This document shows, one piece after another, positions 38,001-59,739 of a DNA stretch of 64,000 bases; the first letter of the stretch is position 1; each line of letters begins with the position of its first letter. The translations under genes and the position numbers were made by a program. Location of the stretch: positions 21,762,001 to 21,826,000 of the forward strand of contig NC_090355.1 of the NCBI RefSeq assembly GCF_035084215.1, given 5' to 3'. Source of the stretch: Heptranchias perlo. Taxonomy: Eukaryota. The notes beneath the pieces are model-generated. The model had not been told where the DNA came from and ran no database searches. It worked only from the letters and a program-made list of their open reading frames with translations.

Positions 38001-41000
38001 ATTTGCCATGTATCTGCAGTAAAAGAGTGTCTCAGCTAACTCAGTGGAAAAAATTTATGACTGAGTCAACATGTTATAGGGACATTTCCACACAACTTTG
38101 AAAGATGTTACATACCTCATTATCTTGGCACTAAATTCCACTTTTAAATCCGAAGAAACCTATTGCATATTTATTCCATTTAGGCACTGAAGTACATAAA
38201 CTAGTCACACATAACTGTCACAAAAGAATACCTTCATGTAAATAACTTATGGTTAATGTTCTTCCAATCAGTTTGTGTTCATTTTAAACTGTGGTGTTAA
38301 ATATTAATTCTAACTGATTTACTGAAGCATGCTCCAACAAGTCTGGTGCAGCAAATGATAATGAGGTATGTAACATCTTTCAAAGATGTGTGGAAATGGT
38401 CTCTAAAACCTCGCATTTGAATTTCTATACAAAAAAGGGAGTATGTTTGACTAAGGGAACTTCTAATACTGCACACTCAAGGAGAGAAGTAATGCAACAG
38501 TGATGATACAATTAAGACCTACTAAAAAGCATCCAGTTCACTTCTAACAAGTCGACATTTAAATGCCCCACGTTGCTTAACTAGAACGGTGACCTGCATT
38601 TATATATAGCGCCTTTAACAACCACAGGATATGCAGAAGCACTTTACAGCCAATAAAGTGCTTTTTTGAAGCATAGTCACTCCTATAACATAGGGAAATA
38701 TTGTAAACAATTTTACAACACATTTATGTAATTACATTTATGTAATTTCCACACCACCTGAGGAAGGAGGAAGCCTCCGAAAGCTTGTGGGATTAAAAAT
38801 AAAATTGTTGGACTATAACTTGGTGTTGTAAAATTGTTTACAATTGTCAACCCCAGTCCATCACCGGCATCTCCACATCATAGGGAAATATGGCAGCCAA
38901 TTTGTGCACAGCAAGGTGTCACAAACAGCAATGAGATATGGATTATCTGGTTACGTAAGACCATCAGAGGTAGGAGCAGGCCATTTGGCCTCGAGCCTGC
39001 TCCACCATTTAATGAGATCATGGCTGATCTGATTTTTACGTCAACTCCACTTTCCCATCTTTTCCCCATATCCTTTGGCCTCCTTGTTGATCAAAAATTT
39101 GTCCAACTCACCCTTGAATGTATTCAATGACCCTGCCTCCACAGCTTTTTGGGGTAAAGAATTCCAAAGATTCATGATCCTCTAGGAGAAGAAATTCCTC
39201 CTTACCATCTTCAATGGGCGACCCCTTATTCGGAGACTATGCCCCCTTGTTTTAGATTCCTCCATGAGGGGTAACATCCTCTCAGCATCTTATGTTTCAA
39301 TGAGATATCTCATTCTTCTAAACTCCAATGAGTGTAGACCCAACCTGTTCAATCTTTCCTCATAAGACAACCCTTTCATTTAAAAAAAAATGTTGGTTGA
39401 TGGATAAAGATTATCCAGGTCATTGGGAGACTGCCCCTGTTCTTTTGACTAGTGTCATGGAATCTTTTACAGCCACCTGAGAGGGCAAACTAGGTTTAAC
39501 ATCTCATCTGAAAGTCTCTGGAGTGGGGCTTGAACCCATGACCTTCTGCCTCAGAGAGAGTGCGACCACTGAGCCAACGCTGGATGGTTGTAATCTTCCA
39601 GAAGTCACTCGATTCTAGAAAGGTCCCAGCGGATTGGAAAACCACAAACGTAACACCCCTATTCAAGAAGGGAGTGAGACAGAAAGCAGGTAACTATAGA
39701 CAAGTTAGCCTAACATCTGTCATTGGGAAAATGCTATAATCCATTATTAAGGAAGTAGTAGCAGGACATTTGGAGACTCATAACACCATCAAGGAGAGTC
39801 AACATGGTTTTATGAAGGGGAAATCGTGTGACATTTATTAGAGTTCTTTGAGGAAGTAACGGACAGGGTGGATCAAGGGGAGCCAATGGATGCAGTATAT
39901 TTGGATTTCGAAAAAGCATTCGATAAGGTGCCACATGAAAGATTACTGCACAAGAGAAGAGCTTATGGTGTTGGGGGTAATATACTAGCATAGAGGATCA
40001 GCTAACTAACAGAAAACAAAGAGTCAGGATAAAAGGGTCATTTTCAAAATGGCAATCTGTAACTAGTGGAGTGCCACAGGGATCAGTGCTGGGGCCTCAA
40101 CTATTTATAATATATATCAATGACTTGGATGAAGGAACGGAGTGTCCTGTGGCCAAACTTGCTGATGATACAAAGATAGGTGGAAAAGCAAGTTGCGATG
40201 AGGACAAAAGTGTCTGCAAAGGGATATTGACAGGTTAAGCGAATGGGCAAAAATTTGGCAGATGGAATATAATGTGGGAAAGTGTGAAGTCATCCACTTA
40301 GGGAGGAAAAATAAAAAAGCAAAATATTATTTGAATGGCAAAATACTACAAAATGCTGCAGTACAGAGAGATCTGGGTGTCCTCTTACATGAAAGAGGAA
40401 GTCAACATACAGGTGCAGCAGATAATCCAGAAGGCAAACAGAATCTTGGCCTTTATTTCTAAGGGGATGGAGTATAAAAGCAGGGAAGTTATGCTACAAC
40501 TATACAGGGTGCTGGTGAGACCACACCTGGAGTACTGCATACAGTTCTGGTGCCCTTATTTAAAAGGAAGGACATACTCACGTTGGAGGCAGTTCAGAGA
40601 AGGTTCACTAGGTTGATTCCGGGTATGGAAGGGTTGTCTTATGAGGAAAGATTGAACAGGTTGGGTCTACACTCACTGGAGTTTAGAAGAATGAGAGGAG
40701 ATCTTATTGAAACATACTAGATTCTGAGGGGACTCGATAGGATAGATGCTGAGAGGATGTTATCCCTCATGGGGGAATCTAAAACTAGGGGGCATAGTCT
40801 CAGAATAAGGGGTCTCCCGTTTAAGATGGAAATTAACAGGAATTTCCTCTCCCAGAGGGTCGTGAATCTTTGGAATTCTTTACCCCAAAAAGCTGTGGAG
40901 ACTGAGTCATTGAATACATTCAAGGCTGAGTTAGACAAATTTTTGATCAGCAAGGGAGTCAAAGGATATGGGGAAAGGGCGAGAAAGCGGAGTTGAGGTA

Positions 41001-42457
41001 AAAGTCAGATCAGCCATGATCTCATTAAAATGACGGAGCAGGCCCGAGGGGCCGAATGGCCTACTCCTATCTCTTATGGTCTTATATAGTAGAGAAAAGA
41101 AAGATCTTCACAACATAGACCATTTCTCTCGTGTTATCAGCTCTTCACTCATGGAATAAAATGGGCATCCACTCTACCAACTGTATATTCTCTGATATGA
41201 TTGCAGTTTGTCACCACCAACCATTTTTTGCTGGCATTGTACAGCAGTCAACAGTTTTCCACTAGAATATTCAAGACCTCAGAATAAAACAGTATTTCAT
41301 AGGTTATTTTTAAAAATGTGTCATTTGTAACTGCCAATAACTTAAATTTATTGGTTGCACTTCTCAGGTATCAGTGGCAAGTAATAATGCTTGATTAAGG
41401 CATCCATTACTTATTGAATTTCGGCCTTCTACCACTTGAGCATATTTTTTCCTTTTCTGTAAAAGGCAATCTGTATTTACATATTCTTGCATTAGATTGT
41501 ATCAAGCTCTGCATATCTCGGCATCAGCCAGTGAATGCAACACTAATCGCTATCAGTAGCTACACTTCTGATTTACAACCTCTTCAAAAAGCAGCCGCAG
41601 TTTTATGCTTGTGTGCTTCAACAATTCATTTTGCAGCTCACATGCCAACCCCACATCATTAAGCCTCATGCTACAAACCACCTTCCAGAAGAATATCACC
41701 ATTTCCAGTAAGAGATGACACATACATTCCACTGGAATCACAACACTTGTATTCTTTCTTGCATAAGATCATTTAATATTTTTTCTTTTAAAAACGAGCC
41801 AGAATTCACCTCAATTTTCCAAAATCAGCAGTTTTCTTTCCAAGAGCAATTCAGCACATGGATTTCTTGTAGAAATTATTTGATAAAGGAAGAACAAATC
41901 ACCAGCTGGCGTAAGTGTTGTATTAGAAGGAAATGCAGATAGGGTTAGATGAAGTAGGATGGGAGACGGCTCGTGTGGAGCATAAACACTGGCACAAGCC
42001 ATATGGGCCGAATAGCCCGTTTCTGTTCTGTAAATTCAATGTAATTAAAAAGGGCAACAATTGAAATGAAAATAACTTTTTGAAGCAGTTTTTGTTAAAG
42101 CTAAAAAAAAATTCAGCATGCACACATTTAGGGTAACGTCAATACTGTAATATGAACACTTTCATTATATACTATTGCCCCACAAAAATATTAAGAGGAA
42201 GGGAAATATTTTTATTCAAAATAATCTGCTTTTCATAAAAAGATACAAGTCACTGAATGCTGCAAAGGAAAAGACACTGCAATTTTCCAGAAAATCAAAG
42301 TGAGTCCAACTGATTTACTGCACTGACCTTAAGCCATTGAACAGCTGTTTGGATTTATCAAGTAGGTAGCAAAAATCAGTAACTGTCTTCCTCTCCCCCA
42401 ATGGAATATCATCATCGGTTCCTCCCCCTGCTGTCATGGCTCCTTCCAGATTCAATA
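6512..42457 (-). CDS. SCAI: SCAI (suppressor of cancer cell invasion), partial multi-exon gene; 10 coding exons visible, continues beyond the left edge
   Basis: Spliced translation [69 protein letters not shown]...[27 protein letters not shown] is recognisably vertebrate SCAI. All introns are GT-AG and exon phases are compatible (1024 coding nt). Confidence 0.97.
6827..7026 (-). mobile_element. Penelope-like fold-back terminal fragment (family B) with degenerate hammerhead motif
   Basis: TSD cttgctttca(a/t)taaa at 6812-6826 and 7027-7041; inverted arms; minus strand reads CTGACAA-A-AGGTT-ATC-GACCT-GAAA. Confidence 0.75.
7074..7399. mobile_element. hAT/Charlie-like MITE
   Basis: Perfect 8-bp TSD GTTTAGAC (7066-7073, 7400-7407); right TIR AGTTTGGACACTCCTG; left TIR degenerate. 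Confidence 0.55.
8430..8531 (-). CDS. SCAI: SCAI exon ([34 protein letters not shown])
   Basis: 102 nt; ccctag acceptor, gtttgc donor. Confidence 0.96.
9040..9430 (-). mobile_element. Old tRNA-headed SINE-like repeat
   Basis: Minus strand has A-box-like GGTTCAG and B-box-like GGTTTGATCCC; body matches the 2985 family. Confidence 0.55.
9454..10355 (+). mobile_element. Jockey-group (CR1-like family 2) LINE, 5'-truncated
   Basis: ORF 9468..10307 [31 protein letters not shown]; conserved 3' tail. Confidence 0.9.
11295..11396 (-). CDS. SCAI: SCAI exon ([34 protein letters not shown])
   Basis: 102 nt; ttttag acceptor, gtgagt donor. Confidence 0.96.
11700..11990 (+). mobile_element. Old tRNA-headed SINE-like repeat
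   Basis: Same motifs as the 2985 family. Confidence 0.5.
12178..12416. mobile_element. PIF/Harbinger-like MITE
   Basis: 13-bp perfect inverted repeat GTACATTTACACT / AGTGTAAATGTAC; GGG start; TGA/TTA flanks. Confidence 0.55.
13118..13270 (-). CDS. SCAI: SCAI exon ([51 protein letters not shown])
   Basis: 153 nt; ttatag acceptor, gtatgt donor. Confidence 0.95.
13720..14115 (+). mobile_element. Old tRNA-headed SINE-like repeat
   Basis: TGGCTCAGCTGG A-box; body matches the 2985 family. Confidence 0.55.
15418..15458. repeat. (CA)n microsatellite
   Basis: About 20 CA units. Confidence 0.98.
16897..16995 (-). CDS. SCAI: SCAI exon ([33 protein letters not shown])
   Basis: 99 nt; accag acceptor, gtctgt donor; phase 0/0. 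Confidence 0.95.
17190..17540 (+). mobile_element. Old tRNA-headed SINE-like repeat
   Basis: gccacttgggcaagatatcagagggctgct motif shared with the 2985 family. Confidence 0.5.
18410..18970 (-). mobile_element. L2 LINE fragment
   Basis: [21 protein letters not shown] and [11 protein letters not shown] peptides. Confidence 0.8.
19118..19214 (-). CDS. SCAI: SCAI exon ([32 protein letters not shown])
   Basis: 97 nt; ttgtag acceptor, gtatgg donor; peptide visible in ORF 19079..19288. Confidence 0.96.
19578..19676 (-). CDS. SCAI: SCAI exon ([33 protein letters not shown])
   Basis: 99 nt; tttag acceptor, gtatga donor; peptide visible in ORF 19391..19675. Confidence 0.96.
20838..20924 (-). CDS. SCAI: SCAI exon ([28 protein letters not shown])
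   Basis: 87 nt; cctag acceptor, gtaagt donor; peptide visible in ORF 20837..21055. Confidence 0.96.
22020..22565 (+). mobile_element. Jockey-group family-2 LINE 3' fragment
   Basis: Highly similar to 9820-10355. Confidence 0.9.
22983..23078 (-). CDS. SCAI: SCAI exon ([32 protein letters not shown])
   Basis: 96 nt; ctaacag acceptor, gtttgg donor; phase 2/2. Confidence 0.96.
23800..27640 (+). mobile_element. Highly degraded long CR1 (ORF1 esterase-like remnants to RT end), interrupted by a Harbinger relic
   Basis: GVHL-like, [28 protein letters not shown] and [11 protein letters not shown] remnants in colinear order. Confidence 0.6.
24985..26110 (+). mobile_element. PIF/Harbinger transposon relic (DDE transposase C-terminal fragment, frameshifted)
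   Basis: [31 protein letters not shown] and [29 protein letters not shown] resemble the HARBI1-type motif series. Confidence 0.75.
27934..28035 (+). mobile_element. Degraded Penelope-like family-B terminus with hammerhead core
   Basis: AGTT-CTGATGA-actatatct-GAAA-TATT-AACT followed by tail remnant. Confidence 0.55.
28320..29135 (-). mobile_element. Jockey-group family-2 LINE fragment
   Basis: ORF 28597..28923 [18 protein letters not shown].. Confidence 0.9.
29630..29880 (+). mobile_element. Old tRNA-headed SINE-like repeat (3' part)
   Basis: tgaagaatggccacttgcacaaggtattggagggctgcc motif. Confidence 0.5.
32009..32040. repeat. (AT)16 microsatellite
   Basis: Read directly from the sequence. 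Confidence 0.98.
33800..34160 (+). mobile_element. Degraded CR1 3' end
   Basis: acaagaggtagttactatgtgg..ctgcca..gggccacatggcctgtttct. Confidence 0.55.
35030..36500 (-). mobile_element. L2 LINE fragment
   Basis: [37 protein letters not shown] peptides; L2 3' tail at 35040. Confidence 0.8.
37360..37900 (-). mobile_element. L2 LINE 3' fragment
   Basis: acaacaacttgcatttatatag tail; homologous to 51525-52215. Confidence 0.8.
38590..39580 (-). mobile_element. Deu-domain SINE interrupted by a PLE fold-back and a CR1 3' end (38955-39375)
   Basis: Colinear with the copy at 43990-44395; tRNA head with gggttcaagccc B-box on the minus strand. Confidence 0.8.
38702..38878 (+). mobile_element. Penelope-like family-A terminal insertion with hammerhead motif and short inverted 5' arm
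   Basis: TSD CATAGGGAAATAT at 38689-38701 and 38879-38891; CTGAGGA-A-GGAGG-AAG-CCTCC-GAAA-GCTT at 38758-38786. Confidence 0.85.
39581..41083 (+). mobile_element. CR1 LINE, 5'-truncated RT plus 3' UTR
   Basis: PQGSVLGP / ADD motifs, [29 protein letters not shown]; frameshifted. Confidence 0.92.
42328..42457 (-). CDS. SCAI: SCAI exon containing likely start ATG at 42437 ([37 protein letters not shown])
   Basis: Acceptor ttttcag; ATG in GCCATG context; donor AAG|gtcagt; ends in phase 2. Confidence 0.93.
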
Positions 42458-42974
42458 CTGAAAACTAATAATAAACTTTACATTAGTACATTGAACTACA
42501 AGTATTGTCTTACACATTATGGATATGTACATTATATAAACCTGTACCTCACCTAATTCCACGAAGGATTAAAAAAAAAAGCAGCACAACTATTCCATCC
42601 ATGTGACTGAAATAAAAATGAAGTTACTGGTCACTTGTAACCAGTGATACAGCCAACTTGGGAGACATTGCCCCATCAGTGACACACAAATGAAGTCTTG
42701 AACAGTTATTGCACAGTAGAGAGAGCCACAGCTTCAAGCTTGTTACACAATTAGTATGTTTATGACACTAATTTTGCCTGAACAGTCACTGTACTTCAAA
42801 AGTAATTCATTGTGTAGCACTTTTGAGAATCTCAACATGATAGTATTTGTATTTATTTAGCACTATTATTTAAGCACAAGCCATCCCTCAATTATGCAAC
42901 TCACTTGCAGCCATCTATTGTATTACAGTACATTGTGTCATGCAGTTATTAAGCCAACATTTACTGAATAAAAG

Positions 42975-43375
42975 GCTCTCCCTGATGGCTCAGCAAGTTT
43001 ATCTACTGACAAGTAAGCAAGAGAGACCAGCAGGGTCCTAGATTTGATTCTTGGTCTGTGCTGAGTTGGCTGATATTGCCTGGGGCAGTCAGTCATCGGG
43101 GTACTACAATTAGTGACAGTACCCATGGGCTAGGGAGATGAGAAAGAGAAAAAAAAAAGTTCCTGATCACTGTCCAGTGACCTGCTGGAACTGCCACTGA
43201 ACATTAAAGATGAAATCAGGTTCAACTGAGATGATATCCCTCACCATCAAATGAATGGTCTGCCAACACCCACTTTCAAGGCTAACAAGTGAATGATGGC
43301 CACTTAGGCAAAGTATTGTTGCTCATGGGACCGTTCTTCAGTAAAAGGATTCAACATCATCAGTAGAAAAAGGAG
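42975..43375 (+). mobile_element. Old tRNA-headed SINE-like repeat
   Basis: TGGCTCAGCA head; atggccacttaggcaaagta motif. Confidence 0.55.
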
Positions 43376-43989
43376 AAGCCACAAGCCACTATTAGGCAGA
43401 ACAGGAGTTAATTTTTTTTAAAAACAGCAGTTTTAAATTTTACGACGACTTTGCGTGGAATAAACAATTTCAGAACACATTGAGGCAACTAGAAGAATGA
43501 AATACTGTTCAAAATAATGCCAGTCAAATGTTACCATTGCAATCAACATAGCAACTCCAGTGCCCATGAGCAAGCCACCCATAAAACACCAATAAAAAAA
43601 CTCATTCCAGTATAATCACAACAGAAAGCACAAGATCCAGAGATGTCAAATGCATGATAGCAAAAAGGCTATCATTTCCATGTAATGACCATGTTTCAAG
43701 CCACTCCACTTTTTTTTAAATTTAAATATTCATAGTGCCAGGAGAACCATTTTAAATCAGAAAACAAGTTAAAAACTTGCTGGATAGGCCATTTATCCAA
43801 CAAGTAGGCACAACCAAACACACAATGCTCATCTTGGTATGAAGTGGTATCCAAGAGTTTACAAACATGATTACATTAATTTGTTAAACATTTATATTTT
43901 ATTTCCTGAAATCAGCTTTGTGTACACTGAATTAACCTTCACACTCCTGCAAAAAAAAGCTTGTAAAAAAGTGAAGCCACATTAAATAA

Positions 43990-44395
43990 AAAACATTTAT
44001 AGCACCTTTCACGACTATAGGACGTCCCGAAGCACTACAGTTATTGAAATATTTTTGAAGTGTAGACGCTATCGTAACGTAGGAAATGCAGCAGCCAATT
44101 TTGCACACAGCAAGGTCCCACAAACAGCAATGAGATACATAACCAGATAATCTGTGTTTTTAAAAAGATGTTGGATGAGAGATAAATGTTGGCCAGAGCA
44201 CTGGGAGATGCCATCCGATTTTTAGTGAGGGCAGATGGGGTCTCTATTTCACGTCTCATCTGAAAGACGGCACCTCCGACAGGGCAGCATTGAAATATCA
44301 ACCTGCATTATGTGCTCAAGTCTCTGGAGAGGGGCTTGAATCCATGACCTTCCGACTCAAGAGGCAAGAGTGCTACCACTGAGCCGAGGCTGACA
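43990..44395 (-). mobile_element. Deu-domain SINE, near full length
   Basis: Minus strand gtcagcctcggctcagtggtagcactcttgcctc..ggattcaagccc head; L2-like tail. Confidence 0.85.
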
Positions 44396-44969
44396 TCTTA
44401 GTTAAAGTTGCCTTTAATATAAACTAACTTGCACTATGACAACATTTTTTTTTTTAAAAGTCAAGAATTTGAAAGTTATTACAAGTGGAAGTTAATGGAG
44501 CATAGATGAACAGAAGCATATTAAAAGAACCTAGTCAAACAATATTTATGTTGATCGCATACACCCAAGACTGTGCTCTTTGAAGGAGGTAACAAAATGT
44601 ACAAAATACTTTATTTCCTGCAGCTGTGCAATGCTAGCTGGAATGTGAACTCCGGTTTCAGCATTTACTTGCTCAGTGACTGATGTAGTAGTGCAGAACT
44701 GTGTTCTCAGAATAAGCTGAAGCATAGCGTTACAGAGGATCTTGCTTTGCTAAGGACCTGCCTTGGTGAGGATCTCAATTCACACAATGTGATTCACTGA
44801 AACGCTGCTGACACAATAAGTTCTGAAAGCATTTTGAGTAAGTGAGAGCGGCAAGATGATCAGTTTTTTCTATGGGTGTGCCAATCCTGCAAGAGCTTCA
44901 TAAAATTTATACTACCTCCATTTTGCTGCAGCCCACATACAATTAACTGGAGGCATGCTTGAAGTATAA

Positions 44970-45875
44970 AATAGAAATCTTGGCAAAATTTACAACACAG
45001 AAGCCATCCATTCAGCCCATTGTGTCTGTGCCAGCTGAAAAAAAGCCATCCAGCCGAATCCCACTTTCCTGCTCTTGGTCCGTAGCAGCACTTCAAGTGC
45101 CTATCCAAGTACTTTTTAAGTATGATGAGGATTTCTGCCTCCGCCACCCTTTCAGGCAGTGAGTTCCAGACCCCCAGCACCCTCTTGATGGAAACATTTC
45201 TCAACTCCCCTCTAATCCTTCTGCCAATTACTTTAATCTGTCCCCAGTTATTAACCTCTCTGCTAAGAGAAATAGGTCCGTCCTATCCACTTTATCTAGG
45301 CCCCTCAATTTTATAAACCTCAATTAAATCTCCCCACACACTCTTCTGTTCTGAAGAAAACAACCCCAACCTATCCATTCTTTCCTCACAGCTGAATTTC
45401 ACCAGTCCTGGCATCACCCTCTTAAATCTCCCCTGTACCATCTCTAGTACAATCACATCTTTCCTGTAATGTAATGACCAGAACTGTACATAGTATCTCT
45501 AGCTGTGGCCTAACTAGTGTTTTATACAGTTCTAGCATAACCTCCCTGCTCTTATAATCTATGCCTCAGCCAATAAAGGAAAGTATCTCACATGCCTTCT
45601 TAACCACCTCATCTACCTGTCCTGCTACCTTCAGGGATTTGTGGCCGTGCACTCCAAGGTCCCTCTCTTCCGCTACACCTTAGTATCCATCATTTATTGT
45701 TCATTCCCTTGCCTTGTTTGCTCTCCCCAAATGCATCACCTTGCACTTCCCCAGATTGAATTCCATTGCCACTTTTCTGCCCAGTCCATTGATCAATTTC
45801 TGCAGTCCACAGCTTTTTTCCTCACTATCAACCACACAGCCAACTTTTGTATCATCTGCAAACTTCTTAATCATA
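44970..45875 (-). mobile_element. CR1 LINE 3' fragment
   Basis: RVLGVWNSLPERVAEA peptide; colinear with 1563-2470. Confidence 0.85.
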
Positions 45876-46004
45876 AATGTTAAGCCTTCTCCTCTCCATA
45901 AGTGGAATGATTAACTGCAGCAAGGGTTAATCACCCAGCAGACCAAACACTACTCAAACCTATCCAAATAAGTCAGGCAGTCAGGAGAATTAATGCTGCT
46001 TTCG

Positions 46005-46370
46005 ACTTGTTCTTGGGATGTGGGTGACGAGCAAGATTACAGTCATTGCCCATCCTTGTTGCAGAGCAGCAATTAAAAAAAAACTGAGCAGCTTGCTAGA
46101 CCACTTCAGAGGGCATTAAAAGTCAACCACAGTGTGGGACTGGAATCATGGATAGGCCAGACTGGTATGGATGACAAGTTCCCGTCAAGGAAGGAGAGTA
46201 CTACACCAGTTGGTAGTTCATTGCAACTGGCAGCTTTCATGGCTATTTTCTTCTGGTGCCAACCCATAAATTGCCACATTTATTGAATTCAATTTCACAA
46301 CACATCATCATGTTTGGAATTGAACACAGCCTCTAGGTTGGTAGTCCATAACAATAATGCTACTATACCC
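46005..46370 (-). mobile_element. tRNA-derived SINE sharing its 3' tail with the family-2 LINE
   Basis: Homologous to 48125-48555. Confidence 0.65.
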
Positions 46371-46449
46371 TGATAAAACTGAAATCACTCAGTGCACAGA
46401 CAGAAAACCCGCATTACTTGACACTGCATTTATAGAAATTTGCTAGTCA

Positions 46450-49145: not shown

Positions 49146-51524
49146 TGGAAAGCTGAACAGTAAATATATAAACTTCACGAACTGAGCACGATTTGGCCTT
49201 TGGTTGGAGGATATACTGCCCAAAGAGATCTCCGGAGAACCACAAGATTGTTTCTTGTCCAGTTCCTTAAATTTCTTTCTGCTGCAGTACAGTAACTTAG
49301 TGAATGAATGTGATGGAAAAGATCAATACTCCAAATCTGGTATTCTGCCAAAAACATCTGATGTTTGCGCAGTCTATGGTTAATCAAATGCATGTTGATC
49401 CATTTTGTTATTAAAAAATTTCAATTCATAATGTGTAGCTACACAACTGTATGAACTTAAATCTTGATTTAGGAGACCCAAAAAAAAGCTCACCACTAAC
49501 CAGTCCCCACCTTCCCAATTACATACCACTGTCTCTAATGAGGTAAATAGTAAAAACTTACATGACAATGTACATTTGTCCAAGTAGTACCACCTAATGT
49601 ATAGACAGGGATTAGTAAAAATGTGCATAGATTTGATAACAGGAAATAGTAAACCAGGAGTAGCAAAATGCTTCAGTTGAATTGATTCATTGATCATAAA
49701 CATCAATGTCAATAAACATTCTTGCAGACACTGTTCACAGGTGAAGCGACAATGTCCTTTTCCTGCACAAAGACAGGATTAGTATACTATATTGCAGAGA
49801 GACAGGATTAGTAAACTATATGGTGAATCTGAAAGTATATTCTTGTGCCATATTTATAATTTTCAGTAAATCACTGGTTATCCTGCATCCATTAGCAGAA
49901 CAAAATTCACAACCCCTATTTATTGTATACGAACTCCTACAACTCCAAAAAGCAGTATTCATTTTTTTGCCTTTTTCCTCCCCCCTCCCTTCACTCACCT
50001 TCCCACAACATACATCTCCTGCAACCAAGATTGGCAAATAAGGGCCATCAGCAGCAAAAAAGACAAACCCCAGATGATTACTTTTTTCCTCCCTCCTTAT
50101 CTGGAAATGTCTCTGCTCATCACCTCGCCATGGCCACGTGGCCGAGATCTGAAACTCCGAGTGGGAGATATCAATCCTGCACCCAACTACCCAGCGTAAT
50201 GCGCCAGTATGGCAACATGCTGCCAAATTGTGCCAATATTGTAATTGTTTCTTTAAATAATTTTAAGATATGCTGACAGCATTGAGAAATAAGCATACAA
50301 CTTGTGCACAATATAAAAAATACCATGGCTGCATTACTTCAGAAAATATAACTACAACAGATCCTAAACACTAAATAGCTCCTGCACTTCACTAAGCAAT
50401 ATATACAATTACAAATTAGATATAATTATAGACCAAAAAAAAAATCATGGTACAGAAAAGGCTGCTCAAGAACTTCAGTATACAAAAAGGTCAATATGGA
50501 ATTTATAATAAATCATTGTTCTCTTTGCAATAGATGTCAGTAGTGCATGATTGCAGTGAGAAGGTCACAACGTTCCGGCCACTGTATAACAAACTGAAAA
50601 TGATTTCAAAATCACATCACCTGGATTTTTTTTTAAATGTTTCAGATTCTATGAAAACAGTACTAAAGTAAGTACTCTGAACATAGAGAAGTAGTTGTAA
50701 AAAAAAGCTTCAAAATCTTTTCAGATTTTAAAAGATGCATATTTTCTTTTGGTGCAGAATCAGGAGTTTAAAAATAAGCCTTCCTAGTTATTGGTCTAGG
50801 ATCAGCATCCACTAAAAAAAAGCCATGAGATTGTCTTTACAACAGAACAAATTTTGAAAATAATTACACTAACAATTTAAGTTTTCATAATTGTGGATTA
50901 CAAATGTTATTCCTCCTTTTTTGAACAGGAGATAAAAATCTAATCAATACACCATTAGGCTTCCCCATAAAAAAAAACTACTTGATAATACAGAAACTTG
51001 ACAATTAAGTGAAAAATGAACAGAAAACTACAAAATACCATTTATACCACACATGGTCTCAGATGTTGGTTTTCACCTTTGATCATTTTAACTGTACCAA
51101 AAAGCTTCCCATATTATTTCAAGATTTAGTTATTTTCTCAATTTACATGTCTTCTTCATCCATGTGGCCCTGCATTCCATTCTCTTCAATTGCATGTAGC
51201 TCTCCCATCTCAACTAATGATGGAAATTATACCTCGATTTCTCCATGTATAAAATGTGCAATGCATATGCTGTACAATCATTCTGTTCCCTTCAGTTGCA
51301 TTAGAGAAAAGCCATGACTGATAACTCCATGTGTGCTTGCTTGACTGCACATTAATGATTGATACATCATATCACCAACACTGGAAATGCACAGTAAAGG
51401 CCACTGAATCCCTCATCAAACCTCCATAACCACCCTGCCTCCACCACCCCCTCCCCCCGCCCCAACCACTATTCTAATGCTCTCCTGGCCAGCCTCCCAT
51501 CCTCCACCCTCTAATCTAAATCAC

Positions 51525-52215
51525 AACAACTTACATTTACTCAGCACCCTCAACATAGTAAAACATCCCAATGCACTTCACAGAAGCGTGAACAAAATTT
51601 GACACCAAGCCACATAAGGAGAAATTAGGTCAGGTGACCCAAAGCTTGGTCAAAGAGCTAAGTTTTAAGGAGGGTCTTAAAAAGGATGAGGGGGTAGAGG
51701 GGTGAAGAGTTTTAGAGAGGGTATTCCAGAGCTGAGGGCCTAGGCAGCTGAACACACAGCCACCAATGGTAAAACAATTGAAATCAAGGATGCACAGAAG
51801 GCCTGAATTGGAAGAGCACAGAGATCAGAGGGTTATAGGGCTGAAGAAGGTTAGAGATAGGGAGGGGCAAGACCATGGAGGGATTTGAAAACAAGGATAA
51901 GAATTTTAAAATCCAGGTGTTGCCTTATCGGGAGCCAATGTAGGTCAGCGAGCACAGGGTTAGGGGTGAACGGGACTTGGCGCGAGTTAGGATACAGGCA
52001 GCAGAATGTTGGATGAGTTCAAGTTTATGAGGGTGCAAGGTGGGAGGCCGGCCAGGAGAGCATTGGAATAATCAAGTCTAGAGGTAACAAAATCATGGAT
52101 GAGGGTTTCAGCAGCAGATGAGCTAAGGTAGGGGCAGAGATGGGCGATGTTACAGAAGTGGAAATAGGCGGTTTTGGTGATGGTGAAAATATGGGGTCAG
52201 AAGCTCATCTCAGAG
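51525..52215 (-). mobile_element. L2 LINE 3' fragment nested among plus-strand L2 remnants (51420-51515, 52215-52370)
   Basis: Homologous to 37360-37900 and 4350-4787. Confidence 0.8.
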
Positions 52216-52559
52216 CCTCCTGTAAGATCCCCATTAAAACCTACCTCTGACCAAATTTATGGCCACCCCTAACAATCATCGGCTCTGCATCCACATATTA
52301 TGCATGACACCTCTGAAGCACCTTGGGATGTCTTTCTATGTTGAAGGTGCTGAATAAATACAAGTTCTTGTTAAAAGGGAGAGGGGGAAGTGCTTCACCA
52401 CATGTTTTATCAAGGTAAGAAAGATTACTTCATTGTTGAAGTACATTTTCCTCTTTCCATACTGACAGCAAGCACTCCAATGCCATGTTACATTCAATAC
52501 ACTGTACCACAGATTTTACAACACAGAAACAGGCCATTCGGCCCAACAGGTCTGCGCTT

Positions 52560-52775
52560 CAAATAGTACCACGGAATCTTATGTCCACCCGAGACAGCAG
52601 ACAGGATCAGAGTTTAACGTCTTATCCAAAAGACAGTAGCTCTGACAGCGTAGAACTCCCTCAGTACTGCACTGAAATGTCAGCCTTGATTATGTGCGTA
52701 AGTCTCTGGAGTGGGGTTTGAACCCATGGCTTTCTGACTGGAGAGTAACCCACCATTGAGCCAAGGTTGACACCT
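52560..52775 (-). mobile_element. Deu-domain SINE 5' part
   Basis: Homologous to 44220-44395. Confidence 0.7.
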
Positions 52776-53377
52776 AAAACGCAAAAATGGTTTTTAATTC
52801 CAATCATATTTTGTAACAATGGAGTGGAACAGCATCATCTCAGTTTCTACTCAATTTATTCAAGTAGTTAATCGCCAGACAGGAGGGTTCCCTCCCAGTC
52901 GGAGAACACTTCAGCAGTCAAGGACATTCAGCCTCCAATCTTCGGGTAAGCGTTCTCCAAGGCGGCCTGTGGAACACACGACAATGCAAAATCGTCGAGC
53001 AGAAATTGATAGCCAAGTTCCGCACCCACGAGGACGGCCTCAACCGGGATCTTGGGTTCATGTCACGCTACATGTAACCCCACCTGACGTAGAGTCATCC
53101 AGACTAAGTCGTAGTTGGCTTGTTCTCCATACACAGATGCAGCCGGACCTGCTGCGATTTCCAGCGAAAAAAAGTTATCTGTTTTCAATACAAACCCCAG
53201 CATCTGCTACATTTGACCCCTTGTGACCCCACCTCAGTATTCTTGGATGTAATGTTTCCCTGACTAACCTGTTTGAACACCATTCACTCCTTTGATTGCT
53301 GTGATTATCTCTCTGCCGAGGTGTGATAAAGGGCAGTTAGAAAGATTATCTGTAATCACCAGGCATTGTTCTCTGAC

Positions 53378-53412
53378 TATATATGCTGTGCCGATATGCA
53401 TCTCTTCACTTC
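53378..53412 (+). promoter_or_regulatory. Candidate TATA plus Initiator of the PLE pseudo-LTR
   Basis: TATATAT at 53378; TCACTTC (YYANWYY) with its A at 53408, 30 nt downstream. Confidence 0.4.
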
Positions 53413-53447
53413 ACCTGACGAAGGAGCAAAGCTCCAAAAGCTTGGGA
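53411..53447 (+). ncRNA. Minimal hammerhead ribozyme motif in the PLE pseudo-LTR (G12 mutated)
   Basis: TCAC-CTGACGA-A-GGAGC-AAA-GCTCC-aAAA-GCTT-GGGA. Confidence 0.6.
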
Positions 53448-54176
53448 TTTCAAATAAAGCTGTTGGACTCTTACCGGGTGTTGTGCGTCTCCTTACATTT
53501 AATCAGAGAGAGAATGCTCAATTAGTCATTTTATAATAAACTTGGAATTTGTTTGAAATTGACTGTTTTAAGATAATGGCCATTTAAAAAATAATGTACT
53601 TTGAAAGTATAATTAATGCCCAATGATTAAGGGAAGAAAATACCCATTTGATTCCCCGTCCCTCAAGTCAAATTATATTGGCCACGGGAATCAAGCGCCG
53701 CCTGGGACAACTGTCAGCTGATTGAGGAATTGGTGCCCTTCTCTCACATTCAAAATGGTAGTCAGGACAGCAGGAACATCACATTCTTTCACAGAAACTT
53801 CATTTTGTTCACCACTTGTAAAATCACACTGTTAGCTGCTCTGCCAATCATTCCAAGTTAAGGCCTGCACAGTGCATTGTTTCAGCTTGGTTAAATTTGC
53901 AGCACTCACACCTCTTCAAAAAGGTTGTGGGTTCAAGTCAGACTAGGATTTCAGCACATAATCTGGCCTGTGCAGTGGTGAGGCAGTGTTGCATTGTCAG
54001 AGGTATCCTATAAATGAAGTGTTAAACCAAGGCTCCAATGGATAAAAGAGCTATAGCACTATTTGGAGAAGAAAGGAGTTCTCCTACTGTTTTTGGCCTT
54101 GACTAATACCACTAAACACAAATTATCTGGTCATTCATTCAGTCATGTGGGACTTCACTGCTGCATTTGTCTAGAT

Positions 54177-54386
54177 GTGGAGATGCCGGTGATGGACTGG
54201 GGTTGACAATTGTAAACAATTTTACAACACCAAGTTATAGTCCAGCAATTTTATTTTAAATTCACAAGCTTTCGGAGGCTTCCTCCTTCGTCAGGTAAAT
54301 GTTTACCTGACGAAGGAGGAAGCCTCCGAAAGCTTGTGAATTTAAAATAAAATTGCTGGACTATAACTTGGTGTTGTAAAATTGTT
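54177..54386 (-). mobile_element. Penelope-like family-A fold-back insertion: perfect 86-bp palindrome with a hammerhead motif on each strand
   Basis: Arms 54214-54299 and 54302-54387; TSD TGCATTTGTCTAGAT at 54162-54176 and 54387-54401. Confidence 0.9.
54301..54341 (+). ncRNA. Minimal type-I hammerhead ribozyme motif (mirror copy on the minus strand at 54260-54300)
   Basis: GTTTAC-CTGACGA-A-GGAGG-AAG-CCTCC-GAAA-GCTT-GTGAAT. Confidence 0.7.
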
Positions 54387-55699
54387 TGCATTTGTCTAGA
54401 TAAGTGGCTGCCCTGCAAAAGTAGCACTTGAAAAAGTAAACCATTGTTTGTAAAATGCTCTGGGATATCCTGTGGATGTGATGAGTGCTATATCTTGTAT
54501 CTTTTTTGCTGCAAATTAATTTTAAAAATTCAGTTAGAAACTAAAATGCTCAAAAGGCTTAAAAAGGTCAAGGATGCTTAGGGTATGTAAACTATTAGTA
54601 ATGCTAAAGATTCTGTCTTCTGCATAGTTGAATGAAGTCTGGTTTCTAGAAAAGATTAGCTCTGCATGTTTTAAACAGATGTTTTTCATTGTGTTTGACA
54701 AATACAATGCAATCTGCAATGTTGTGGGTTATTTACAGTCACACTGTAACCCTGAATTGCAAGACCATATTTTTTTTTAATATTGTGACAAGTAAAGGGG
54801 AACTTGCAGCTTCACCAGTCTGTTTTCACTACCTTCTTTGGGTCAAAATAGATGACAGGCGAGATATATTGCACGATTCGCAGTAAATCTCAATGGAGGG
54901 ATGCAGGTGTGGGTAACTGATTAAAATTTCACCACCAAGCCAGAAACCACACAACAGCACAAATGCTGGTTCACAGTATTTCACCCGAGTACTATGGGGC
55001 TTTCCAGAACTGCCATTTTACTCTTGGGAGTAGTTCTTTCATAGAATTTCTAATATATACAGATACAATCACAATTAGTCATATTCTTTATATACCTCTG
55101 CTCATCTATTCCTCAATTCTTCCAATCACTCTCATTCTAGAAATGTCTAGTGATGTTGTCAATAGCAGTTTACAACCCTAAACCTAATCCCAACAACCAA
55201 CTTCTAAACCTAACCAACAACCTAACCACAAATCCTAGCCACTAACCCTAAAGCATGAATAAAGAGAGCGATGCAGAACCAGCTATGTGTCAATAGTCAT
55301 TGTGACATTGATGATACAGGTCGGCCACACTGTCAAGAGTCACTTATTCTTTCATCTTCCATTGTTTGGTTCCCCTATACCCTCTTGCATCATTGTCTCC
55401 AATTCTTTCAAATTCTCTTAAGAAATAGGCAGAGATTCCTTTTAAATAAACCTAAATGACTACTGTGATCCAATTACAATGACTATGTCAATAGTTGCAA
55501 ATGTTGCTGTTAAAATTTTTTTAGCTACTATGCACACATGGTTACTTTCTGACTTTATTCCTGATATTTTCCATACTAGTAACATGAGGGATTTTGCTGC
55601 AAATTGAACTATCAGGGAACTCATTTTTCTTTTCTTTTGCTTTTCTCTAGGAAAGAAATGACTGAAACACGAGTTTAAAATCCATAAAAACACTGTCTG

Positions 55700-55915
55700 T
55701 TTGCCTCCACCTCCCTCCTGTCTGAGCAGAAAACAATTGTCTGCTCTGCCTCCACCTCCCTCCTCCTTAAAACCTACCTCTTGGACCAAGCTTTGAGTCA
55801 CCAGTCTTAATAGCCCCTCTTTGGCTCGGTGTAAATTTTTGTCTGATTGCACTTCTGTGAAGCACCATGGGAAGTTTTCCTATGTTAAAGGCACTATATA
55901 AAAAGTAGTTGCTGA
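55700..55915 (+). mobile_element. L2 3' end
   Basis: Homologous to 4600-4787. Confidence 0.75.
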
Positions 55916-55928
55916 CGATTACACTTTA

Positions 55929-57239
55929 TTTAGAATGCAGTTCTCTTGGATCCGAGAATAGTTTTGATTGACCACTCTTAGTTGTAGAATGGTGCAAGGG
56001 ATAGGGAATGGAAGTGAAAAAAATTTAATTAGCAGGAGAAAACACTAAAGGATGAGAATGCGTTGTACCAGTGAAGGATTAAATGGCAGTTTTTTTTAAA
56101 ATCACCGATGTATGGTTTTTGTAAGGACTTTTGCTGGAAAATGTGCGCACAATGATTACCAAAATCAAGCTAAAATTTCTTGTCCACAATTTTTTGTTTA
56201 CTGTTTAAATGTTGCACATTTTTTTTTAAAAAACACTAAATCTATGAAATGCATGCATGCAGTGGTTCAAGAAGGCGGCTCACCACCATCTTCTCAAGGG
56301 CAATTAGGGATGGGCAATAAATGCCGGCCTCGCCAGCGATGCCCACATCCCATGAATGAATAAAAAAAATTATGGTTCTGTTTAAAAGGAATTTTATTTA
56401 GATTATTTCACAGGACCACAGGAAACCAGTCCTGAAATGTCACTTGAACATGTCCCAATCAGCTCACTCAAATCAAAAATTTTTCAAAATATTGATAAAG
56501 CAACTTTCTTCAGTTGTTAAAATTATACTTTTTAGATGGTGTTGGGAAAAAGAACGGCTGCTATATTAAAAAAAAATTACTATTTCCATTCAAAACTCAA
56601 ATGTGAAGCTAAAAAGTGTAAACAAAATATGGATAAATTTTAAAGACACAGGAACCAAATAAAAGCACACTAATTATTGGGCATAATTGTTCATCCAATA
56701 CAGTTAAAAGAATTAAGGGTATAGCAGTGTTTTTACATTTGAACTGGCCTTTCAAAGAATAAAATGTGTCTTCTGAAATTCCTTTTAAACAGAACCATAA
56801 TTTTTTTTATTCATTCATGGGATGTGGGCGTCGCTGGCGAGGCCGGCATTTATTGCCCATCCCTAATTGCCCTTGAGAAGATGGTGGTGAGCCGCCTTCT
56901 TGAACCACTGCATGCATGCATTTCATAGATTTAGTGTTTTTTTTTAAAATGTGCAACATTTAAACAGTAAACAAAAAATTGTGGACAAGAAATTTTAGCT
57001 TGATTTTGGTAATCATTGTGCACAAATTTTCCAGCAAAAGTCCTTACAAAAACCAGACATCGGTGATTTTAAAAAAAACTGCCATTTAATCCTTCACTGG
57101 TACAACGCATTCTCATCCTTTAGTGTTTTCTCCTGCTAATTAAATTTTTTTCACTTCCATTCCCTATCCCTTGCACGATTCTACAACTAAGAGTGGTCAA
57201 TCAAAACTATTCTCGGATCCAAGAGAACTGCATTCTAAA
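55929..57239. repeat. Long inverted duplication: arms 55929-56394 and 56776-57239, 381-bp spacer
   Basis: Arms are reverse complements with about 5 substitutions plus one homopolymer length difference; each contains a family-2 LINE 3' tail. Confidence 0.95.
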
Positions 57240-57264
57240 ACAAATCATTGAAAAAATGCCAGCA

Positions 57265-57700
57265 TCATGGAATCATACAGCACAGAAGGAGGCCAGTCAG
57301 CCCATCATGCCTATGCCAGCTTTTCAAGCAGCTATCCAATTCATACCCCTGCAATTATTTTTGCCGTTTCAATTATATGTCCACCCTTTCAGGCAGTGCA
57401 TTCCAGATCACAACAACTCACTGTAAAAAAAAAACTCTCACCTCCCCTCTGATTTTTTGCCAATTACCATAAATCGGTGTCCTCTGGTTACTGACCCTCC
57501 TGCCAGTAGAAACAGTCTCTCCAAATCTACTCCATCAAAACCCTTCATGATTCTGAACACCTCTTAAATCTCTCCTTAACTTTCTCTGCTCTAAGGAAAA
57601 CAATCACAGCTTCTCTCGTCACTCCACACAACTGAAATCCCTCATCACTGGTACCATTCTAGTAAATCTCTCAAAGGCCTTGACATCCTTCCTCCAATTC
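57265..57700 (-). mobile_element. CR1 3' fragment
   Basis: Homologous to 1563-2070. Confidence 0.8.
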
Positions 57701-59407
57701 AGGTGAGCAATGTTATGGGAAAAGTCTATGAGTATTTTTTTGACTTGCAATGTGGGGATTGCTATAAACTAATTAGTGTAGTATTATGAACATTGTTTGA
57801 GCCATGGTAGCTAATGATGGTGCAAAAGCATTACAGTAGTCAGTGTCCAACTTAAGTGCTGCCAAAGAAGCAAACTGAATTTTGCAGACAGAATTTCTGA
57901 ATTGGGATCAGTTATTATTTTCTGTCCCTCCAATGAAACTTCCTGCCTGTGGATTATCTACACTTTCTTCACTTTTGCACAAAGCAGCTTTCACCCAAAA
58001 CACTGGACACTTAGCGTACTAATAATTTAGTTATAAATCCATGCTTGCCTCCCCCTCTTTTTTTTTGTTCTTTAGTCCTCCAATCCATAAATGCTCATCT
58101 CAAAAATACAACACTGCACTATTATAATTCACTGTTTAATTTTTTTTTTGAATGATTAAAGATTCTACTTTGGCCCTAAAAGAGATGTTGTCATAACTGC
58201 AGCATCAATTCATCTTGAAAATTATTTTTCTTTTCTTCCCACTTCATCTTGCCTCCACAATCAACATGTGCCAGAAAGCTCCTCTCCATCCCAAATTAAA
58301 ATATTGAAATAGACAAGAGAATTGGGGAAGGGACAGTAATGAGAGGTGTGGGGAAATACAACCTATGTCAGCAGTACCAGATGGCACAGTGGGTTAGATC
58401 CTGGCCTAGTATTAAAGCCAGCAAACAAAACTAAGAGTTGAAGTTAATTTCGCCAATTTCAATCCATTTCCAAAACTGCCTCGAACCGCACTAAATTGAC
58501 ATTCTCATTTAAAGATCTTTTTTGGAAGTCCCCAACACAAAGTTTGAATAACATTGATCTAAACTGGACTGAATTTTATCACAACATAGCTGAGCTAAGT
58601 ACTTGCTATACTAAGCAGCAATTAGTCAGACTGATAAATGGGCTCTTAAATTATCAAGCTATCCTGCTGCTGGTGGTGAAGGAACCTGTTGAATTTTCTT
58701 GCTTCGGAGCTATGATTATCCGCAGTTTACAGTTCAATGAAATAGATTGCCAAATTTTAAACTTAGCACAAATGTTGAGAATTGTGGCTTGCTTTTGATA
58801 TGACATTACCTCAATTAACATTCCTACACACCTAAAATTTAACGTAATTAACATTCACAAACAGTACTATAGAAAAACTGCTTTGACATACTTAACACAA
58901 ACCAGTGCAATTTCACACTAAAGATTTATACCTCTTCTTACAAATAGTAAAGTTCCTCTTGTATTTTTTTTTGAGTGAGGAGAAATGATTATACATCCTA
59001 AACTATTGTAGCAAAGCGCTCAATGCAGTACAGCAAAAAGACTGCTTGGTGATGTCTGAATACATGTTAGCAAGAGATTTACTTAAACTCCAGTTCCTAA
59101 AAATGTATCTACCCACAGTCTTTGTTCAGTTCAAAATTCCCTTATTTAATCTTCAGCATTGCAACCATCTGAGCCCTTAAATTACCAATTAATCTGCTGA
59201 TCCAAGATTGCTCAGTAGATTCTGATCAAAACCTCAAATTTCCCCAGTGAACCATCTCATTAATAAATGCTGCAAAATGACATGCTCAGTGCTCACTTGT
59301 CTGGATAATTACATCTAGTTTTTCCTTGGTAGCCAGCAGCTTCTAACCATAGAAAGTAGATGCATCAGAGATTGAGAATTCTTTTATCTATCATTTATAC
59401 ATACACA

Positions 59408-59610
59408 TGTAAGGAATCTTACAACACCAGGTTATAGTCCAACAAATTTATTTTAAAATCACAAGCTTTCGGAGATTATCCGCTTCATCAGGTGAAGGGG
59501 ATAATCTCCGAAAGCTTGTGATTTTAAAATAAATTTGTTGGACTATAACCTGATGTTGTAAGATTCCTTACATTTGTCCACCCCAGTCCATCACCGGCAT
59601 CTCCACATCA
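59408..59610 (+). mobile_element. Penelope-like family-A (second subfamily) fold-back insertion with hammerhead motif
   Basis: Arms 59407-59487 and 59493-59573 (2 mismatches); TSD TTATACATACACA at 59395-59407 and 59611-59623. Confidence 0.9.
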
Positions 59611-59739
59611 TTATACATACACAGCAGTTCCTCTGCGGGGCTTGTGCTACATGGTTTTTGCAACTCTTTATATACAAGGAACATACACAAATAATATTGT
59701 TAAGACCACACGATCTCATGGAGTACAAGATTTGTGATC

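What the first reader, a model, noticed from the sequence alone, without database searches (positions are those of the whole stretch)
38689..59623. Family of short hammerhead-ribozyme-bearing fold-back retroelements derived from a Penelope terminus
Seen: three independent insertions (38702-38878, 54177-54386, 59408-59610) share one architecture. Each has a ~120-nt unit starting at a CUGANGA...GAAA core, ending in the same 36-nt tail (tgtc(a/c)accccagtccatcaccggcatctccacatca), joined head-to-head to an inverted copy that stops at ...TTACA(A/T)T (a few nt earlier at 54387) and lacks the tail. Each is flanked by a 13-15 bp TSD. The same unit ends the GIY-YIG-encoding fragment at 52871-53490. Established: PLEs carry minimal hammerheads in their pseudo-LTRs and often have inverted 5' ends with a short tail. 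Inference: these ORF-less palindromes may be a self-propagating non-autonomous ribozyme mini-element mobilised in trans, rather than random truncations.
Basis: partly seen in the sequence, partly recalled or inferred. Interest (0 to 1): 0.85.

Follow-up and report, generated by a model that had tools for sequence, protein, structure and literature searches.

The report
Run-off copies of a Penelope retroelement
These short hairpin-shaped insertions are real and very common in this genome, but they are likely dead by-products of a full-length Penelope-like jumping gene, whose copying enzyme likely runs off the front end of its own RNA about 130 bases after it starts, rather than a self-spreading ribozyme mini-element.

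Summary
Observation largely confirmed; the self-propagating mini-element reading is not supported. The three insertions have 13-15 bp TSDs, but A's inverted arm is only 22 nt and C's tailed arm lacks the hammerhead core. A, B, C and the ORF fragment belong to four subfamilies of a Penelope-like element (PLE) with an intact 902-aa RT/GIY-YIG ORF; its tail has 43,266 exact genome matches. Among 254 sampled copies, 118 end 115-144 nt upstream of the ORF start. This pile-up is not at the ribozyme cut site (-92). Its modes sit 29-30 nt behind a conserved TATA box and shift with it between two subfamilies, so it likely marks the mRNA 5' end. Fold-back centres fall into 138 classes in 149 copies. The recurrent ones (B type 449 copies, C type 61) occur on several parent haplotypes and in both orientations. 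Copies of 0.5-6 kb share the architecture. Best reading: run-off cDNAs primed from both target strands at the two known PLE start sites, joined head to head. The architecture is known; I did not find the run-off cliff in print. This scan reported similar fold-backs on other genomes.

The parts
38689..38701 (.). Copy A, left TSD (13 bp; right copy 38879-38891)
38700..38721 (-). Copy A, tailless inverted arm, 22 nt, parent positions -36 to -57 from the ORF ATG; 2 nt overlap the TSD
38722..38744 (.). Copy A, junction spacer, a partly templated duplication; this junction occurs once in the genome
38745..38879 (+). Copy A, tailed arm (subfamily F1). Starts at the ATTTCC motif where F1 copies most often start; hammerhead 38754-38790 (core CUGAGGA 38758-38764, stem II 38766-38778, predicted cut after 38786); tail ends at 38879
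54162..54176 (.). Copy B, left TSD (15 bp, last 3 nt shared with the tail end; right copy 54387-54401)
54174..54304 (-). Copy B, tailed arm (subfamily F2), 131 nt, 5' end at TATA+30 of F2 parents; intact core CUGACGA at 54288-54294
54302..54386 (+). Copy B, tailless arm with intact core at 54307-54313; joined to the tailed arm through a 3-nt microhomology; this junction type has 449 exact genome matches
59395..59407 (.). Copy C, left TSD (13 bp; right copy 59611-59623)
59408..59496 (-). Copy C, tailless inverted arm (subfamily F4), core CUGAUGA at 59485-59491, one mismatch in stem II
59494..59610 (+). Copy C, tailed arm starting inside the core (no CUGAN); 3-nt GAA microhomology at the junction; this junction type has 61 genome matches
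52870..53500 (+). Copy D, 5'-truncated tailless PLE 3' end (subfamily F3): ORF residues from about 824 of 902, 3' UTR, TATA-like box 53378-53385, decayed hammerhead (core 53415-53421, G12 changed); ends at -35; no TSD found

Best explanation
The three insertions are short copies of the end of a full-length Penelope-like retroelement, likely dead by-products made each time its reverse transcriptase starts at the ORF start and likely runs off the 5' end of the element's own mRNA about 130-140 nt later. Steps: (1, shown) an intact 902-aa RT plus GIY-YIG parent exists, and its ATG follows the tail directly. (2, inferred) A TATA box in the upstream pseudo-LTR starts transcription about 30 nt downstream, 7-17 nt before the hammerhead core. 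(3, known in vitro for the anole PLE, inferred here) The protein nicks both target strands about 12 nt apart and primes cDNA at two internal RNA sites, the tail end (0 to +10) and about -36. (4, inferred) Each cDNA stops at or near the RNA 5' end, like retroviral strong-stop DNA. (5, shown at DNA level) The two ends are joined head to head by short microhomology or templated inserts, giving a palindrome with a one-sided tail and a TSD. (6, inferred) Long and tandem copies come from templates with no 5' end at that point, such as read-through tandem RNA or ligated circles. The hammerhead is a real conserved part of the parent that rides along because it lies between the start site and the ATG. 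It does not set the ends, and in a fold-back transcript it is predicted to be buried in a long hairpin.
For: Parent: 902-aa ORF starting right after the tail, RVT_1 E 3.3e-10, GIY-YIG E 4.6e-4, 675 exact tail-ORF junctions, full-length tandem copies. Cliff: 118 of 254 copies end at -115 to -144, hazard 0.029 per nt against 0.001-0.002 in the flat parts and 0.004 around the cut site; seen in both samples, 49 of 103 and 69 of 151; 97 of the 118 ends are backed by an inverted arm plus TSD or an adjacent TSD. Canonical TATA in 53 of 64 long copies. Modal ends at -17/-16 from the core in F1 (TATA at -46) and -10 in F2 (TATA at -40), both TATA+29/30. The tailless arm starts at -33 to -39 in 110 of 148 copies and at -31 to -42 in 27 of 30 long inverted copies of 0.5-6 kb. 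TSD in 148 of 149 short fold-backs, mode 12 bp. 17 of 17 extensions of 3 nt or more after the tail match the ORF start, so the template carried the ORF start. The tailless arm reaches further 5' than the tailed arm in 72 of 149, the reverse in 39, so neither arm is always a plain copy of the other. B and C fold into single hairpins of -147 and -128 kcal/mol. PMC11167929 (main text parts 1-2 read): both strands cut and extended, two internal RT starts bounding the tail, ORF sequence downstream of the start required, ribozyme mutants still insert.
Against: No RNA evidence for the start site: the only runs were contigs of guessed type. No clear cap-derived extra G at junctions. The TATA-tracking test is mixed: an exact-match version gave no family difference relative to the core (p 0.32) and a difference relative to TATA (p 0.006), opposite to my reading, though 10 F1 arms stopped there at variants missing from the panel. 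The tolerant version gave p 0.053 and 0.13 on whole distributions; only the modal windows differ clearly (16:4 against 4:17, p 1.4e-4), and I chose these windows. Only 41 of 85 ends lie at TATA+27 to +33; 38 score further upstream, some by alignment over-extension. The F3/F4 families show no sharp mode. The D. virilis Penelope promoter is reported as internal and TATA-less (PMC2377424, passages). The arms nearly always share one haplotype (0 of 31 B-type copies discordant at the stem II variant; 4 of 137 with two or more shared-variant differences), so two independent RNAs are the exception and the joining step is not settled.
Confidence: 0.68

Rival explanations
1. Same origin as dead by-products of the parent, but the cliff comes from polymerase stalling or template release at the 5' side of the folded hammerhead or a bound protein, not from the RNA end.
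For: The pile-up lies within about 25 nt of the core, many ends are at -7 to +5 from the core, and whole-distribution tests of TATA tracking are weak.
Against: RT meets stem II from its 3' side (-100), where the hazard is low (0.003). The modes differ by 7 nt between F1 and F2 in step with TATA spacing. Ends inside the core are mostly the shorter arm of a microhomology junction. cDNAs that had already crossed an ORF stop in the zone in only 3 of 20 cases.
Confidence: 0.15
2. Fold-backs form by snap-back self-priming of one cDNA, which then anneals to a short second cDNA or is resolved by the endonuclease at -36. This is a variant of the joining step; the copies are still dead by-products.
For: Arms almost always share a haplotype. 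L275 and L280 show the C-type snap-back extended 13-16 nt and then rejoined. 16 of 21 long junction inserts are templated. Self-priming was proposed in PMC3846280 (passages).
Against: A pure one-cDNA snap-back cannot give copies whose tailless arm extends further 5' while the other arm has the tail (72 of 149, 42 by 10 nt or more). A few copies have arms from two subfamilies (L045). A second priming event is still needed.
Confidence: 0.1
3. Some fold-backs (the B and C junction types) are self-propagating non-autonomous elements that are transcribed and re-mobilised in trans by the parent's protein.
For: The B junction has 449 and the C junction 61 exact matches. 56 of 61 C-type copies carry the minority GGGG stem variant, which is 34 of the first 100 listed cores. 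Four recurrent short-copy haplotypes plus one more were not seen among 70 long copies. Twin priming on a fold-back RNA could in principle flip the junction.
Against: B type occurs on at least 5 parent haplotypes, orientations 19:12, with no arm difference shared by two of 31 copies. C type occurs on two main haplotypes (13 and 11 of 32), orientations 24:7. The GGGG bias follows linkage to the TTCAC that supplies the microhomology (4 of 10 against 0 of 22), and GGGG copies with ORF exist (L129). Short copies lack the TATA box and the ORF 5' sequence needed for binding in the anole PLE. 34 of 129 have no core at all. A's junction is unique.
Confidence: 0.05
4. Short copies are cDNAs of ribozyme-cleaved RNA, with the hammerhead cut setting the 5' end.
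For: The hammerhead shows covariation; the hazard at -85 to -99 is about twice the local background, 14 of 229.
Against: No arm ends at core+28 to +30, the predicted first bases of the 3' product; the small excess is at the AAGCTT palindrome. Most short copies keep the whole core, which lies 5' of the cut. PMC11167929 found no RNA reads starting at the cut and no need for cleavage in vitro.
Confidence: 0.02

Closest known systems
Insertion units of endonuclease-bearing Penelope-like elements (pseudo-LTR, adjacent inverted 5'-truncated copy, one-sided 30-40 bp tail); PMC8557442 and PMC3846280, passages read
   Same: Inverted tailless copy at the 5' end, one-sided tail of about 36 nt, TSD of about 12 bp, partial tandems, palindromic or overlapping junction.
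   Different: Here most copies (176 of 254) are shorter than 175 nt and their 5' ends pile up about 30 nt behind a TATA box; those papers describe variable truncation, and in the passages seen give no breakpoint table.
PAc, Poseidon PLE of Anolis carolinensis (PMC11167929, main text parts 1-2 read)
   Same: Two internal RT start sites bounding the tail, both strands primed, hammerhead upstream of the start sites, AT-rich targets (TSDs 68% AT).
   Different: In PAc the ORF begins at hammerhead stem II and the tail lies inside the ORF; here the ATG follows the tail. The parent here has the CX2-5CXXC linker of Neptune/Nematis. That paper does not map the mRNA 5' end or explain fold-backs.
Minimal type I hammerheads of metazoan PLEs (PMC4209133, parts 1-2 read)
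   Same: CUGANGA core, extra base between 9 and 10.1, G10.1-C11.1, palindromic AGCU helix III, short helix I. The paper already notes pairs of motifs 100-700 bp apart on opposite strands and ascribes most motifs to truncated PLEs.
   Different: Helix II is 5 bp here; no cleavage assay was done on this motif.
Animal non-LTR retrozymes (bioRxiv 10.64898/2026.07.22.740005, parts 1 and 3 and passages read; PMC7229834, search listing only)
   Same: ORF-less, hammerhead-bearing, derived from PLE pseudo-LTRs.
   Different: Retrozymes are head-to-tail tandems with a hammerhead in each unit. These are head-to-head, often with one core or none, and the hairpin would block ribozyme folding.
L1 twin priming and retroviral minus-strand strong-stop DNA (recalled, no call)
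   Same: Second target strand primes a second cDNA, giving a 5' inversion joined by microhomology; internal priming near the RNA 5' end gives a short run-off cDNA.
   Different: Here both cDNAs copy the same overlapping stretch, so the product is a palindrome; priming is by target DNA, not tRNA; no strand transfer to a true LTR is shown.

Membership tests
EN+ Penelope-like element (parent) | Single ORF with RT and C-terminal GIY-YIG endonuclease | tested here: met
   902-aa ORF; RVT_1 E 3.3e-10; GIY-YIG E 4.6e-4, 20.9 bits, just under the 22.6 cut-off; Atlas hits at 0.98 to clusters with the same domains
EN+ Penelope-like element (parent) | Pseudo-LTRs from partial tandems, inverted 5' copy, one-sided 30-40 bp tail, TSD | tested here: met
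Neptune clade | CX2-5CXXC linker between RT and endonuclease (shared with Nematis) | tested here: met
   motif at residue 753; definition from PMC8557442
Neptune clade | Placement in an RT phylogeny with reference PLEs | not tested
   no reference PLE proteins were fetched; clade name rests on the motif only
Minimal type I hammerhead | Conserved core with covarying helices I and II and palindromic helix III | tested here: met
   95.8% of cells paired, 15 cells in 3 pairs changed on both sides, 0 of 500 shuffles as high, 38 distinct related sequences; Rfam did not detect it at E 1
Minimal type I hammerhead | Self-cleavage | not testable with these tools
   needs an in vitro assay, probably as a dimer or with the protein
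Non-LTR retrozyme | Head-to-tail tandem units each with a complete hammerhead | tested here: not met
   head-to-head; both cores in 56 of 129, none in 34. Met only by a separate single-locus array, L322
Non-LTR retrozyme | Circular RNA accumulates | not testable with these tools
   only assembled contigs of guessed type were available
Self-propagating non-autonomous family (SINE- or MITE-like) | Fixed internal structure and diagnostic variants shared by copies and absent from the parent | tested here: not met
   138 junction classes in 149 copies, no two insertions identical; recurrent junctions on several parent haplotypes in both orientations
Self-propagating non-autonomous family (SINE- or MITE-like) | Keeps its own promoter and the cis signal for the partner protein | tested here: inconclusive
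   short copies lack the TATA box and the ORF 5' sequence; an internal promoter as in D. virilis was not excluded

The most novel reading that the evidence does not exclude
These thousands of short copies are a fossil record of a strong-stop step in Penelope retrotransposition. On linear capped mRNA the enzyme starts at the ORF start and falls off the cap 130-140 nt later, leaving promoterless palindromes. Long and tandem copies, the only ones that regain the TATA box, are copied from a second RNA pool with no end there, most boldly unit-length circles made by the two hammerheads. The ribozyme would then decide whether an insertion is live or dead without ever marking an end.
Probability: 0.3. 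Interest if true: 0.65.

Novelty: new member of a known kind. Interest (0 to 1): 0.36.

Why it matters
The elements themselves are ordinary PLE insertion products and should not be annotated as a new mini-element, as miRNA hairpins (Rfam gave two spurious miRNA hits) or as MITEs. What has value is the breakpoint table. How PLEs rebuild their pseudo-LTR and what the hammerhead is for are open questions (stated in PMC2377424, PMC4209133, PMC11167929). A 15-25-fold cliff at TATA+30 with no spike at the ribozyme cut site links the in vitro internal-initiation result to genomic products. It gives a sharp prediction (RNA 5' ends at -131 in F2 and -138/-139 in F1) in a family with intact, near-identical copies. 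By estimate about 22,000 short fold-backs (43,266 x 129/254) also put long perfect hairpins into host transcripts.

Tried and rejected
Rfam found no hammerhead at E up to 1, only miRNA and leader look-alikes of the palindromes. A DNA similarity search of the genome returned nothing because common words are skipped; patterns were used instead. Pfam on the window's 69-aa fragment found no GIY-YIG, since the motif lies upstream of it. The MSA-based arm comparison was inflated by gap placement and was redone pairwise; its nearest-neighbour count is not used. The exact-match TATA test went against my reading and is reported above. Cap-derived G: F1 ends at -17 were preceded by G in 3 of 6 and F2 ends at -10 in 1 of 10, no clear signal. 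Splice acceptor as cause of the cliff: no AG at the modal ends and no shared upstream exon. Expression: no RNA holder listed; four runs of one sample guessed as RNA, contigs only, uninformative on starts or ends. A genome count of TATA-bearing F4 copies could not be run, so the short-to-long ratio of the GGGG variant is open. A B-type copy followed by ORF sequence was checked as a possible master and has only 82 nt of ORF. The 404-bp tandem array's junction occurs at one locus only, so it is not a dispersed family. A haplotype pattern failed and was fixed. Literature: 8 searches found no paper tabulating PLE 5' ends against a start site or applying twin priming to PLEs; subscription journals and Repbase/Dfam entries were not searchable, and supplements were not read.

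Full report
1. Observation. The three insertions are there with exact TSDs of 13, 15 and 13 bp. B and C are long palindromes; A has only a 22-nt inverted arm and an 18-nt spacer. C's tailed arm begins inside the hammerhead core, so its only core is on the tailless arm. The ORF fragment D spans 52870-53500, has no tail and no TSD, and encodes the endonuclease only after the GIY-YIG motif. The four units are 69-93% alike, and each matches a long copy of a different subfamily (A F1 84/85, B F2 85/85, C F4 83/85, D F3 73/80). F1-F4 are my working labels.

2. The parent. The window lies in a 3.25-Gb genome. The tail 29-mer has 43,266 exact matches. Loci taken around them hold intact ORFs; one is 902 aa with its ATG directly after the tail, with RT, a weak GIY-YIG hit and the CX2-5CXXC linker that PMC8557442 assigns to Neptune and Nematis. 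No tree was built. There are 675 exact tail-ORF junctions and full-length tandems. The hammerhead matches the minimal PLE type of PMC4209133 and shows compensatory changes in helices I and II across 38 distinct related copies. Cleavage was not tested.

3. Sample. I collected 277 tail-bearing copies: the first 100 genome matches and their neighbours, 140 matches chosen by the four letters after the tail, 20 from loci chosen for being fold-backs, and the three in the window. Three were dropped because the alignment did not end at the tail, and the 20 selected fold-backs were left out of frequency counts, leaving 254. Two of them (L043, L044) are segmental duplicates and were kept. Nearly all come from contigs C1 and C2.

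4. Where the copies end. 118 of 254 end 115-144 nt upstream of the ATG. The hazard there is 0.029 per nt, against 0.001-0.002 at -36 to -84 and beyond -160, and 0.004 around the predicted cut at -92. Both subsamples show it (49 of 103, 69 of 151). 97 of the 118 ends are backed by an inverted arm plus TSD or an adjacent TSD, and long copies aligned without themselves never stopped there, so the cliff is not an alignment artefact. No arm ends at core+28 to +30. A canonical TATA box sits 37-47 nt upstream of the core in 53 of 64 long copies. Modal ends are -17/-16 from the core in F1 and -10 in F2, both TATA+29/30. This test is mixed: the modal windows differ (16:4 against 4:17, p 1.4e-4, windows chosen after seeing the data), whole-distribution tests are weak (p 0.053 and 0.13), an exact-match version pointed the other way because of variants missing from the panel, and F3/F4 show no sharp mode. 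I infer, without RNA data, that the cliff is the mRNA 5' end.

5. The fold-back. 129 of 176 short copies have an inverted arm. It starts at -33 to -39 in 110 of 148 copies and at -31 to -42 in 27 of 30 long inverted copies of 0.5-6 kb, so short and long copies are one continuum. TSDs were found in 148 of 149 short fold-backs, mode 12 bp, but in only 21 of 47 short solo copies. Junctions overlap by microhomology in 70 of 149, differ by 0-7 nt in 58, and carry inserts of 8 nt or more in 21, of which 16 are templated. The tailless arm reaches further 5' in 72, the tailed arm in 39, which needs two priming events. Arms differ by 1.7% within a copy against about 12% between copies. Only 4 of 137 differ at two or more shared variants, so one template is the rule and two the exception; whether one RNA is read twice or a cDNA snaps back is open. 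In all 17 short copies of the first sample with 3 nt or more between tail and TSD (of 62 with a TSD), those letters match the ORF start, one with a mismatch and some against an inferred variant start. This fits PMC11167929, where both strands are cut and extended, RT starts at two internal sites bounding the tail, ORF sequence downstream is required, and ribozyme mutants still insert.

6. Self-propagation. About 7,800 fold-backs have exact cores on both arms within 30 nt (3,737 plus 4,097), with varied centres. My sample has 138 junction classes in 149 copies and no two identical insertions. A's junction is unique. B's recurs 449 times; in 31 examined it lies on at least five parent haplotypes, in both orientations (19:12), with no shared arm differences. 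C's recurs 61 times, 56 with the minority GGGG variant, which at first suggested a master copy. But 32 examined split into two main haplotypes (13 and 11) and both orientations (24:7), and GGGG is linked to the TTCAC that supplies the microhomology (4 of 10 against 0 of 22). Six of the 11 recurrent short-copy haplotypes, covering 47 of 63 copies, were also seen among 70 long copies; five were not. Short copies lack the TATA box and the ORF 5' region, 34 of 129 have no core, and B and C are predicted to fold as single hairpins that bury the ribozyme. Recurrent formation from a fixed RNA end explains the data better than master copies.

7. Long copies. Pseudo-LTRs upstream of an ORF stop in the cliff zone in only 3 of 20 cases that reach it (4 if -148 is counted), against 118 of 205 on first pass; p about 5e-4 on a count of 3 of 19, and some loci are not independent. 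This suggests a second template pool without that end: read-through tandem RNA or circles. A single-locus array of 9.5 x 404 bp (TATA, hammerhead, tail, 128 nt of ORF), flanked by a 12-13 bp TSD, fits rolling-circle copying or later tandem expansion.

8. Verdict. A new member of a known kind: dead short insertions of a likely Neptune-type PLE, with the architecture described in PMC8557442, PMC3846280 and PMC4209133. Four earlier notes of this scan on other genomes reached the same filing; I saw them after forming my reading, and they are not independent support. The part I did not find in print, in 8 searches of open papers, is the cliff at TATA+30 and its reading as a strong-stop step. Twin priming and strong-stop DNA are recalled comparisons. 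Interest 0.36.

Noticed in passing
L322:1357-5183 (G000:C2 about 21.273-21.277 Mb): 9.5 head-to-tail copies of a 404-bp unit (pseudo-LTR -276 to -1 with TATA, hammerhead and tail, plus the first 128 nt of the ORF), 99% identical, ending at the tail and flanked by a 12-13 bp TSD. It looks like a retrozyme-type array or rolling-circle product; its internal junction occurs only at this locus.
   Followed up: yes
L323:3861-9901 (G000:C1 about 188.73 Mb): Head-to-tail full-length copies with a 3,083-bp period, ORF 99.9% identical to L051; the family looks young.
   Followed up: partly
L294/L295, L324, L325: Divergent ORF pairs joined through short inverted pseudo-LTR pieces with a tail on both arms.
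   Followed up: partly
L292-L321: 10 of 30 pseudo-LTRs upstream of an ORF end at -15 to -80, several near the tail start, like the ORF-between-two-tails copies drawn for Drosophila in PMC2377424; may reflect insertion into the element's own tail.
   Followed up: no
L066, L174, L256, L076, L008: A small group of arms ends at TATA+1 to +9, and no tailed arm of 254 ends at -160 to -179; unexplained.
   Followed up: no
L045:about 6035-6277: Fold-back whose two arms come from different subfamilies (4 shared-variant differences), a case of two RNA templates in one insertion.
   Followed up: yes
window 55929-56394 and 56776-57239; window 39008-39379 and 40625-41029: Two other long inverted pairs (98-99% and 90-97% complementary) made of different repeats, unrelated to the PLE unit.
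   Followed up: no
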